Of a DNA stretch of 32,000 bases, positions 16,398 to 16,744 are shown piece by piece; the first letter of the stretch is position 1; each line of letters begins with the position of its first letter. The stretch comes from Synechococcus sp. Nb3U1. GTDB taxonomy: Bacteria; Cyanobacteriota; Cyanobacteriia; Thermostichales; Thermostichaceae. The notes below the pieces were generated by a model. The model had not been told where the DNA came from. It made no database searches and was given only the letters and a program-made list of their open reading frames with translations. The stretch is taken from positions 1,896,427 through 1,928,426 of the forward strand of contig NZ_JAKFYQ010000001.1 in NCBI RefSeq assembly GCF_021533835.1. The letters are read 5' to 3'. A program made the translations under genes and the position numbers.

Positions 16398-16420
16398 TAT
16401 GGGGAGACGGAACAGCAAAG

Positions 16421-16486
16421 GAGAGGAGACGACCATGCAGTGAGCGACAGTCAGATGTCTACTAACATATCGCTTCGCTCCTCTCA
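16421..16486 (+). repeat. Stem-loop module 1 in the IS 5' non-coding region
   Basis: Closing stem GAGAGGAG/CTCCTCTC. Internal blocks GACGACCAT and GATGTCTACTAACATAT are shared with module 2. Confidence 0.75.
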
Positions 16487-16540
16487 TAGAGATCGCCGAG
16501 AGCCAGAGAAATGGTAATAGGAAAAGGGACTGGGCTAGGG

Positions 16541-16603
16541 ATTGAGGACGACCATCCAACGTCAGACAGCCCGATGTCTACTAACATATTGCATCGCCTC
16601 AAC
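16541..16603 (+). repeat. Stem-loop module 2 in the IS 5' non-coding region
   Basis: Closing stem TTGAGG/CCTCAA. It has the same internal blocks GACGACCAT (16547) and GATGTCTACTAACATAT (16573), 119 bp downstream of module 1, and a different variable segment. Confidence 0.75.
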
Positions 16604-16744
16604 CTTGACCGGCTTCCTTCAACGAATTCTACGTGCTTCGCACACGCTTCGCGAACAGGGAGTGGTGACAGACACCTTCCATAATCTCTTCGCTCAGAAG
16701 CAGGCCGCCCAGTTCCTCACAACAAACTATCCCCAACTTAGCTG

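What the first reader, a model, noticed from the sequence alone, without database searches (positions are those of the whole stretch)
16398..16744. Two paralogous stem-loop modules in the IS 5' non-coding region: candidate bridge (guide) RNA
The 347 bp between the IS left end and the transposase ATG holds two modules 119 bp apart, at 16421-16486 and 16541-16603. Each is closed by its own stem (GAGAGGAG/CTCCTCTC and TTGAGG/CCTCAA). Both contain the identical blocks GACGACCAT and GATGTCTACTAACATAT, flanking a variable segment (GCAGTGAGCGACAGTCA versus CCAACGTCAGACAGCCC). IS110-family recombinases were shown in 2024 to use a bispecific non-coding bridge RNA whose two internal loops read target and donor DNA. 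A pair of structurally similar loops with different variable parts is what one might expect from such an RNA. Short matches exist: TCCAAC in module 2 occurs in the left target flank, and GTCTA / TAACA in the shared block occur at the right IS end and in the complement of the right target. These matches are too short to be convincing by eye. The 187 bp 3' non-coding region (18047-18233) also has hairpins (GTCACG...CGTGAC, AGCCA...TGGCT) and is an alternative location.
Basis: inference. Interest (0 to 1): 0.6.

Follow-up and report, generated by a model that had tools for sequence, protein, structure and literature searches.

The report
Bridge RNA with two target loops
The non-coding left end of this cyanobacterial IS110-family jumping gene encodes a bridge (guide) RNA, but the two look-alike hairpin modules are both target-reading loops aimed at integron attC sites, and a third loop further downstream reads the element's own ends, so one RNA may aim at two kinds of site.

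Summary
Two 64-nt paralogous stem-loop modules (16421-16485, 16542-16603) lie in the 5' non-coding region of an intact IS110-family element.

The bridge-RNA reading is supported, but the loop assignment is not. Both modules have target-binding-loop (TBL) anatomy:
- The variable 10-mer on the 5' side equals the left flank of insertions. Module 1 matches in some copies and module 2 in others, including this one (TCCAAC).
- The invariant 3' side TAACATA is the complement of the right junction TAT|GTTA, where GTTA belongs to the attC R' box.

The donor-binding loop is a third element at 16623-16692. Its CTCAGGG copies the right end and its CCATAAT complements the circle junction AT|TATGG. Both covary with the ends across phyla.

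Joining the ends creates a TTGACT-17-TATTAT promoter. Outgroups and some cyanobacterial relatives carry one TBL plus the donor loop, so the second TBL is a derived duplication.

Evidence that module 2 is used is weaker than for module 1. I found no paper describing a two-TBL bridge RNA. Notes from this scan report a duplicated target hairpin in an IS1111-type element, and attC-targeting IS110 elements, on other DNA.

The parts
16386..16397 (+). Left target (attC L' side). TCCAAC at 16386-16391 equals the start of the module 2 guide. T16397 is the only base shared by target and donor at the crossover.
   Evidence: empty sites TCCGCTCCAACCGGGTT|GTTATGC in L098, L100, L101 and at window 21360
16398..18223 (+). 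IS110-family element, 1826 bp, inserted without duplication immediately 5' of the attC R' box.
16398..16400 (+). TAT: second half of the -10 hexamer TATTAT that forms only when the right end is joined to the left end. It is also the start of the right donor (TATGG).
   Evidence: direct reading
16402..16410 (+). Left sub-terminal inverted repeat GGGAGACGG.
   Evidence: it covaries with the right copy in relatives (GACGAG with CTCGTC)
16421..16485 (+). Module 1 = target-binding loop 1. Outer stem 16421-16428 with 16478-16485, plus CGA 16430-16432 with TCG 16475-16477.
   Evidence: 65.2 bits
16436..16445 (+). Left target guide 1, TGCAGTGAGC (variable 10-mer). It matches the flank of Leptothermofonsia copy L037/L083 (CAGTGA).
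16446..16459 (+). Inner hairpin of module 1 (GACA-GTCAGA-TGTC).
16463..16469 (+). Right target guide 1. TAAC pairs with GTTA of the attC R' box. AT complements the core. A is a handshake base. Together they are the reverse complement of TAT|GTTA.
   Evidence: geometry from PMC11208160 and PMC11208158
16486..16541 (+). A-rich spacer between the two modules. It aligns with relatives. Role unknown.
16542..16603 (+). Module 2 = target-binding loop 2. Outer stem 16542-16547 with 16598-16603, plus CGA 16549-16551 with TCG 16595-16597.
   Evidence: 50.5 bits
16555..16564 (+). Left target guide 2, TCCAACGTCA. Its first 6 nt equal this copy's own left flank.
16565..16578 (+). Inner hairpin of module 2 (GACA-GCCCGA-TGTC). 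Relatives have GTCA/TGAC, a compensatory change.
16582..16588 (+). Right target guide 2, TAACATA, identical to that of module 1.
16623..16692 (+). Donor-binding loop. Outer stem CGAA 16623-16626 with TTCG 16689-16692; in this copy GCGAA 16651-16655 with TTCGC 16689-16693 is an alternative.
16631..16655 (+). 25-nt insertion peculiar to this copy, splitting CT from CAGGGA of the left donor guide. A homologous insertion sits at the same point in L045.
16656..16661 (+). Left donor guide remnant CAGGGA. Relatives have CTCAGGGA, which equals the right-end sequence.
16664..16676 (+). Inner hairpin of the donor loop (GGTG-ACAGA-CACC), with compensatory changes in relatives.
16679..16685 (+). Right donor guide plus core complement, CCATAAT: the reverse complement of AT|TATGG at the circle junction.
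16745..18046 (+). Recombinase gene, 433 aa, with DEDD_Tnp_IS110 and Transposase_20 domains. Open reading frame intact.
18198..18203 (+). TTGACT: -35 box of the junction promoter, 17 nt from TAT|TAT.
   Evidence: direct reading; TTGAC conserved in 52 right ends
18204..18212 (+). Right sub-terminal inverted repeat CCGTCTCCC.
18212..18218 (+). Left donor CTCAGGG, read by the left donor guide.
18221..18223 (+). TAT: last bases of the IS and first half of the junction -10 hexamer.
18224..18230 (+). Right target GTTATGC = attC R' box (GTTRRRY).

Best explanation
The region encodes the bridge RNA of an IS110-family element that inserts into integron attC sites.

Inferred: when the element excises as a circle, its ends join and form a sigma70-type promoter (TTGACT, 17 nt, TAT|TAT) that transcribes the left end. 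Shown by comparison: the transcript would fold into three internal-loop modules.

Modules 1 and 2 are tandem paralogous target-binding loops. Each presents a variable 10-nt left target guide, identical to the top strand of the attC L' region about 4-11 nt before the crossover. Each also presents the same right guide TAAC-AT-A, which pairs with the conserved GTTA of the attC R' box, the core T and the last bases of the donor.

The third module (16623-16692) is the donor-binding loop. CTCAGGG pairs with the right end, and CCATAAT pairs with the joined AT|TATGG.

Inferred: a recombinase dimer loaded on either target loop can synapse with the dimer on the donor loop. One element could then insert into two sequence classes of attC, always just 5' of GTTRRRY. 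In this copy the flank matches guide 2. The donor loop of this copy carries a 25-nt insertion, which may weaken donor recognition.
For: - Protein: PF01548 and PF02371. Distant but significant match to the IS621 and ISCro4 recombinases with solved structures.
- Boundaries and empty sites.
- Module conservation and structure: 92.3% of cells paired against 38-53% when partners are slid; 10 pairs with compensatory change; covariation score beaten by 0 of 500 shuffles.
- Guide-to-flank matching, longest common run against permuted flanks: module 1, 5.17 vs 4.25 (0/3000); module 2, 4.46 vs 3.98 (19/3000); best of the two, 5.90 vs 4.89 (0/3000). Examples: 10/10 at L006:1106, TGCATGGGC in L028, TGCCATG in L138, TCCAACGC in L044.
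- Same element, different module: of the five distinct flanks of the WIN/Leptothermofonsia element, three match guide 2, one matches guide 1 and one matches neither.
- Right flank consensus GTTAG(G/C)C in 64 junctions; T at -1 in 60 of 61 left flanks.
- Donor loop: the left donor guide and the right end share four co-varying states, GGG, AGAG, ATG and ATA, from cyanobacteria to Gemmatimonadota. Right donor guide CCATA goes with TATGG, and CTATA with TATAG.
- A covariance model built from single-TBL relatives hits both modules and nothing else in the window.
- The 5'-bottom-strand, 3'-top-strand order and the handshake bases match IS110-group bridge and seek RNAs (PMC11208160, PMC11208158, PMC11187229).
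Against: - No transcript or activity data exist.
- Support for module 2 as an active guide is weaker. Its guides vary little between elements. A coarser four-position permutation test was not significant (10 observed vs 8.2 expected).
- The sequences are related, so the permutation figures overstate independence.
- The distance between the guide match and the crossover varies from -12 to -9, unlike the fixed register of IS621. The left guides stop 2-4 nt short of the core.
- Only one base (T) is demonstrably shared by target and donor, whereas IS621 has a 2-nt core.
- Much of the scaffold is invariant, so many pairs are uninformative.
- This copy is single in its genome and its donor loop is interrupted.
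Confidence: 0.68

Rival explanations
1. It is a bridge RNA, but only one of the two modules works as a target loop. The other is a recent duplicate that is decaying, or it has a different job such as recombinase loading, RNA stability or regulation of transposase translation.
For: The module 2 guide-to-flank signal is modest (19/3000) and not significant. One lineage inside the two-module clade (L018) has gone back to one module. Canonical relatives work with a single loop.
Against: Both scaffolds, including the right guide TAACATA, are nearly invariant in elements whose recombinases differ by 30-35%, while the spacer between them drifts. Both guide segments are hypervariable within a fixed frame. 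Insertions of elements whose module 1 reads TGCAT... lie in TGCAG, TGCAA or TCCAA-type flanks that match module 2 (L225, L022, L223, L226, L201, L044, this window). In the window's own lineage, different copies match different modules.
Confidence: 0.22
2. One reading: module 1 and module 2 are the target-binding and donor-binding loops of a standard two-loop bridge RNA.
For: There are two loops of similar architecture with different variable parts, as in IS621. GTCTA in the shared block resembles the right end of this copy (GGGTCTAT).
Against: The 3' sides of the two modules are identical and complement the target side (GTTA), not the left end (TATGG). Neither variable 10-mer matches the right end. 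GTCTA is part of the inner hairpin and does not follow the right end in relatives: ATGTCTAC occurs with GGGCCTAT, and ATGACTAC with GGGACTAT only by stem covariation. A separate loop carries both donor guides, with covariation.
Confidence: 0.04
3. The modules act as DNA, not RNA. They would be sub-terminal direct repeats bound by the recombinase or a host factor, or remnants of captured attC-like sequence.
For: They are direct repeats near an IS end. Their guide parts resemble attC sequence.
Against: Compensatory changes keep the stems. The strand-specific arrangement of guides matches bridge RNAs. The guide differs between elements in step with the flank. A junction promoter points into the region.
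Confidence: 0.04

Closest known systems
IS621 / ISCro4 bridge RNA-recombinase systems (IS110 group; Durrant et al. 2024 PMC11208160; Hiraizumi et al. 2024 PMC11208158; PDB 8wt6, 9t56)
   Same: - DEDD plus Tnp recombinase.
- Guide RNA encoded in the long left end, upstream of the gene.
- Internal-loop modules whose 5' side copies the top strand of the left half-site and whose 3' side complements the right half-site plus core.
- Handshake bases after the core complement.
- A separate donor loop reading the joined ends.
- A promoter formed at the circle junction.
   Different: - Two target loops in tandem instead of one.
- Left guides end 2-4 nt before the crossover, and their register varies by up to 3 nt.
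- Only a single T is shared between target and donor, rather than a CT dinucleotide.
- 9-bp sub-terminal inverted repeats.
- The protein is only distantly related (E about 1e-8 over the Tnp domain).
- The target is an integron attC site.
IS1111-attC group (ISKpn4, ISPst6, ISPa25) with seekRNA (Siddiquee et al. 2024 PMC11187229)
   Same: They insert at one end of integron attC sites in one orientation. They have sub-terminal inverted repeats. Targeting is RNA-guided.
   Different: In those elements the guide RNA lies downstream of the gene, and the top-strand complement comes 5' of the bottom-strand match. Here the RNA is upstream and the order is the IS110 one. The terminal extensions differ: 4 nt left and 11 nt right here, against 7 and 3.
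Single-TBL relatives of this element (cyanobacterial L004, L009, L131, L147; Sedimenticola L034; Woeseiaceae L039; Verrucomicrobiota L048; Gemmatimonadota L056, L064)
   Same: Homologous recombinase (40-72% identity), the same scaffold motifs (ACGAC..., ACTAACATA, ACGAA...CTCAG...TATAA...TTCG), the same donor loop and the same -35 box in the right end.
   Different: They carry one target loop. The window element and a large cyanobacterial clade carry two.

Membership tests
IS110 family (IS110 group) insertion sequence | DEDD (RuvC-like) N-terminal domain plus Tnp (Transposase_20) C-terminal domain | tested here: met
   PF01548 6e-27 and PF02371 5.7e-16. Matches the IS621 and ISCro4 chains.
IS110 family (IS110 group) insertion sequence | Longer non-coding region upstream of the gene; no terminal inverted repeats; no target duplication | tested here: met
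   Left non-coding region 347 nt, right 177 nt. Ends TATGGGG.. and ..GTCTAT. Empty sites show a clean insertion between ..GTT and GTTATGC.
IS110 family (IS110 group) insertion sequence | Sub-terminal inverted repeats absent or very short (2-3 bp). Long ones define the IS1111 group. | tested here: not met
   There is a 9-bp repeat, GGGAGACGG with CCGTCTCCC, which covaries in relatives. The element therefore mixes IS110-type RNA layout with IS1111-like repeats.
Bridge RNA (IS621 type) | [quoted passage not shown] | tested here: met
   Guide-to-flank matches with permutation support. TAACATA is the complement of TAT|GTTA. The left guide is not contiguous with the core.
Bridge RNA (IS621 type) | Second loop that reads the joined donor ends in the same way | tested here: met
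   The loop at 16623-16692. The left donor guide and right end covary in four states. The right donor guide and left end covary.
Bridge RNA (IS621 type) | Exactly one target loop and one donor loop | tested here: not met
   Two target-type loops, both hit by a model built from single-loop relatives and conserved in about 40 elements.
Bridge RNA (IS621 type) | Structure supported by covariation | tested here: met
   10 of 34 pairs show compensatory change; the covariation score is beaten by 0 of 500 shuffles; slid controls give 38-53% paired. Many pairs are invariant.
Bridge RNA (IS621 type) | RNA is made, binds the recombinase and is required for recombination | not testable with these tools
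   There is only a sequence-level junction promoter, TTGACT-17-TATTAT.
Rfam families | Match to a curated covariance model | tested here: not met
   No relevant hit at E up to 10 in 15800-18800.

The most novel reading that the evidence does not exclude
A natural bridge RNA carries two alternative, independently evolving target-binding loops that share one donor loop. A single IS110-family element would then be bispecific for target sites, here two sequence classes of integron attC. This would be natural multiplexing of an RNA-guided recombinase, arising by tandem duplication of the target loop and kept across a broad cyanobacterial clade.
Probability: 0.55. Interest if true: 0.75.

Novelty: new variant of a known kind. 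Interest (0 to 1): 0.62.

Why it matters
Bridge recombinases are being engineered as programmable DNA-insertion tools, and all characterised bridge RNAs have one target loop and one donor loop.

A conserved natural architecture with two target loops on one donor loop would show that the recombinase tolerates modular addition of target specificities. It suggests a simple design for multiplexed or fallback targeting.

It also shows how a selfish element can widen its range over a variable family of sites (attC) without losing the conserved half-site.

Two unusual features give testable hints about how much slack the synaptic complex allows. One is the flexible distance between the left guide match and the crossover. 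The other is the single shared core base.

Biologically, the element adds an IS110-layout lineage to the insertion sequences that disrupt integron cassette arrays, here in cyanobacteria.

Tried and rejected
- Rfam search of 15800-18800 at E up to 10 gave only two chance hits on the minus strand.
- Other copies in the window's own genome: none. The only other match is a 32-nt match (about 25 nt of right end plus attC flank) elsewhere, so the ends had to be defined from relatives.
- Module 1 or 2 as the donor loop: rejected, because neither variable 10-mer matches the right end and both 3' sides complement the target.
- GTCTA in the shared block as a donor guide: rejected, because it belongs to the inner hairpin and does not follow the right end in relatives.
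- A bridge RNA in the 3' non-coding region: rejected, because only the last ~27 nt are conserved.
- A 2-3-nt core (GTT, TT, TAT, TA or TG): each was checked against the two junctions and five empty sites, and only a single T fits all. A donor core AT with a variable first target base remains possible.
- RNAalifold proposed a long-range stem between left-end bases 4-10 and TCTYTTC after the donor loop. I set it aside because those bases lie upstream of the likely start from the junction promoter. It is not excluded.
- A fixed-register scoring of guide against flank missed real matches because the register varies, so I replaced it with the longest common run.
- A four-position class test was not significant for module 2.
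- The metagenome scan for a 16-mer returned mostly chance hits; 25 loci were usable.
- Tetu and Holmes 2008 (PMC2447020) is not held, so the exact IS1111-attC insertion point could not be compared.

Full report
**What is there.** The window holds an IS110-family element. ORF 16745-18046 (433 aa) carries DEDD_Tnp_IS110 (6e-27) and Transposase_20 (5.7e-16). It matches the structurally solved IS621 and ISCro4 recombinases at about 1e-8. Between the left end and the ATG, the repeat finder reports a 64-nt direct repeat, 16415-16478 and 16534-16597, 75% identical and 119 nt apart. Rfam has nothing for the region.

**Boundaries.** The element is single-copy in its own genome; the only other match is a 32-nt match elsewhere, about 25 nt of right end plus attC flank. 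A protein-guided scan of one genome per species returned 80 related loci, almost all cyanobacterial. They include five ~92%-identical copies in Leptothermofonsia sp. ETS-13.
- All copies start TATGGGGAGACG and end ..CCTCAGGGNCTAT.
- In window coordinates the element is therefore 16398-18223.
- Five unoccupied look-alike sites read TCCGCTCCAACCGGGTT|GTTATGC or close variants: L096, L098, L100, L101 and window 21360.
- The element sits between ..GTT and GTTATGC with no duplication. A single T is the only base common to target and donor at the crossover.
- Over 64 right junctions the flank is G58 T59 T63 A53 G47, which is the attC R' box GTTRRRY. Over 61 left flanks the last base is T in 60.

**Junction promoter (sequence shown, function inferred).** The right end carries TTGACT (18198-18203), followed by 17 nt and then TAT. 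Joined head-to-tail to the left-end TAT, this gives TTGACT-17-TATTAT. The TTGAC box and its spacing are conserved in 52 right ends, while the rest of the 3' non-coding region is not. This is the junction-promoter arrangement described for IS110 and IS1111 elements (PMC11208160, PMC11187229). It would start transcription near 16407-16412, reading into the modules. The 3' non-coding region is not a plausible home for the guide RNA.

**Anatomy of the modules.** In 35 distinct two-module left ends (alignment A2) each module has five parts:
- an outer stem (GAGGAG/CTCCTC and equivalents), extended by CGA/TCG;
- a 5' loop side, CyA followed by a variable 10-mer;
- an inner hairpin, GACA/TGTC or the compensated GTCA/TGAC;
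- a 3' loop side, TAC-TAACATAT-CG;
- the closing strand.

RNAalifold finds these helices. Counting my stated structure gives 92.3% of cells paired, against 38-53% when partners are slid. Ten of 34 pairs have changes on both sides, and the covariation score is exceeded by 0 of 500 shuffles. Many pairs are invariant and so uninformative.

**Both modules read the target.** The geometry of IS621-type RNAs is as follows. The 5' side of a loop has the sequence of the top strand of the left half-site. The 3' side is complementary to core plus right half-site. Two handshake bases then pair with the other DNA after strand exchange (PMC11208160, PMC11208158). IS110-type seekRNAs have the bottom-strand match 5' of the top-strand match (PMC11187229).

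In both window modules the 3' side TAACATA (16463-16469 and 16582-16588) is the reverse complement of TAT|GTTA. That breaks down as right target GTTA, the shared T, and the last bases of the donor.

The variable 10-mers equal the left flank of insertions:
- Matches to module 1: TGCATCGCGC 10/10 (L006:1106), TGCATGGGC (L028), TGCATTGG (L025, L031), TGCATTGGA (L170) and TGCCATG (L138).
- Matches to module 2: TCCAACGC (L044), TGCAGCG (L017/L225), TGCAGC (L022, L023, L030), TCCAAC (L201, L003 and this window at 16386-16391).

Within the window's own lineage (identical guides) there are five distinct flanks. Three match guide 2, one matches guide 1 (L037/L083, CAGTGA) and one matches neither.

Permuting flanks among 41 distinct two-module insertions gives these mean longest common runs:

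| Guide | Observed | Permuted | Shuffles reaching observed |
|---|---|---|---|
| Module 1 | 5.17 | 4.25 | 0/3000 |
| Module 2 | 4.46 | 3.98 | 19/3000 |
| Better of the two | 5.90 | 4.89 | 0/3000 |

A coarser four-position test is significant for module 1 (5/5000) but not for module 2 (1274/5000). Module 2 guides are similar across elements, so shuffling cannot break their matches. The elements are related, so these counts are not true probabilities. Neither 10-mer matches the right end.

**The donor loop is a third element.** Downstream of module 2 every relative has ACGAAyyCTCAGGGA, a hairpin, then yTTCCATAATCTyTTCG.
- CTCAGGG copies the right end at -11 to -5 from the crossover. This is the same register as the left target guides.
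- CCATAAT is the reverse complement of AT|TATGG at the circle junction.
- The loop guide and the right end change together in four states: CAGGG (two-module cyanobacteria, Sedimenticola, Woeseiaceae), CAGAG (single-module cyanobacteria), CAGATG (Verrucomicrobiota L048, Gemmatimonadaceae L064) and CAGATA (Gemmatimonadales L056).
- The right donor guide CCATA goes with left end TATGG. CTATA goes with TATAG in the gammaproteobacterial relatives.
- The inner hairpin shows several compensated forms: AGG/CCT, AGGG/CCCT, GGTG/CACC, GATGA/TCATC and CGG/CCG.

In the window this loop is 16623-16692.

**Single versus double.** Gamma-, Verruco-, Acidobacteriota and Gemmatimonadota relatives, and several cyanobacterial lineages (L004, L009, L033, L131, L147, L026, L036), have one target loop followed by the donor loop. 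That is the canonical layout.

In a recombinase tree, 17 two-module elements form one cyanobacterial clade with one nested reversion (L018). The window plus Leptothermofonsia lineage sits on an unresolved backbone. The inter-module spacer aligns between the two groups, which favours one origin of the duplication, but two origins are not excluded.

A covariance model built only from 16 single-loop relatives hits the window at 16418-16487 (65.2 bits, E 3.8e-14) and at 16538-16606 (50.5 bits, E 1.6e-10), and nowhere else in 32 kb. Both modules are therefore homologues of the single target loop.

**State of this copy.** The ORF is open. The donor loop has a 25-nt insertion (16631-16655) between CT and CAGGGA, absent from the Leptothermofonsia copies. 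It ends in GCGAA, which can replace the normal CGAA arm of the closing stem, and it contains a small GTGC-TTC-GCAC hairpin. A homologous insertion lies at the same point in an unrelated single-module element, L045, so it may be a tolerated variant rather than damage. I cannot tell which.

**What does not fit the IS621 model.**
- The left guides end 2-4 nt before the crossover.
- The start of the flank match lies anywhere from -12 to -9, even for identical guides.
- The shared core is a single T. Alternatively it is a donor AT against target TT, GT or AT, with the right junction always keeping AT.
- There is a 9-bp sub-terminal inverted repeat, which is an IS1111-group trait.

These points do not argue against RNA guidance, but they mean the synapse geometry is not simply that of IS621.

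**Literature and earlier notes.** Full-text searches for a second or tandem target-binding loop found nothing relevant. The 2026 survey of 32,190 bridge RNAs describes longer guides but no doubled loop. The known attC-targeting insertion sequences (ISKpn4, ISPst6, ISPa25) are IS1111-type, with a downstream seekRNA. Notes of this scan, which I did not check, report a duplicated target hairpin in an IS1111-type element and several attC-targeting IS110-group elements in other genomes.

**Verdict.** The bridge-RNA interpretation is right in kind but wrong in assignment. The region holds two target loops and a separate donor loop. I rate the overall reading at about 0.7, and the specific claim that both target loops are used at about 0.55.

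Noticed in passing
L002:1501-1532 (own genome, G000:C1:1603120-1603151): A solitary ~25-nt copy of the IS right end (TGACTCCGTCTCCCTCAGGGTCTAT) sits directly against GTTAGGC at another locus, with no IS body. It looks like the remnant of a second copy lost by deletion or by an aberrant recombination that kept the right junction.
   Followed up: partly
window 16631-16655 and L045 (minus strand, about 2153 in reversed coordinates): A 25-nt insertion splits the left donor guide in the window copy. A homologous insertion (about 18/25 identical) sits at the same position in a single-module element of a different lineage. This suggests exchange between elements or a recurrent tolerated variant.
   Followed up: partly
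left flanks of L012, L027, L028, L030, L034, L039 against their guides: The distance from the left-guide match to the crossover varies from -12 to -9, even for identical guides, and the guides stop short of the core. This is unexplained. It may reflect the variable L'-R' spacing of attC sites, or looping out of DNA.
   Followed up: partly
window 16402-16410 and 18204-18212; L024 and L007 ends: The sub-terminal inverted repeats covary between the ends (GACGG with CCGTC here; GACGAG with CTCGTC in L024), so they are under selection as a pair. This trait is usually used to define the IS1111 group, yet the element has IS110-type RNA layout.
   Followed up: partly
window 16486-16541 and the equivalent in relatives: The spacer between the two target loops holds a conserved A-rich motif (GAAAAGCTTAAAGTAAAAAAGCGGGAG in most relatives, shortened in the window lineage). 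Its role is unknown. An internal promoter or a processing site are possibilities.
   Followed up: no
L023:2056-2440: In the Altericista copy, about 100 nt are inserted inside module 1, between its 3' loop side and the closing strand. This is a naturally disrupted first target loop that could show whether module 2 suffices.
   Followed up: no
L006:1106-1190: A second, truncated left end with only module 1 lies about 1 kb upstream of the complete element in the same contig. Its flank gives the best guide match seen (10/10).
   Followed up: no
window 18191-18203: TTGACT occurs twice, 7 nt apart (18191-18196 and 18198-18203). Only the second has the 17-nt spacing to the junction -10 hexamer.
   Followed up: no
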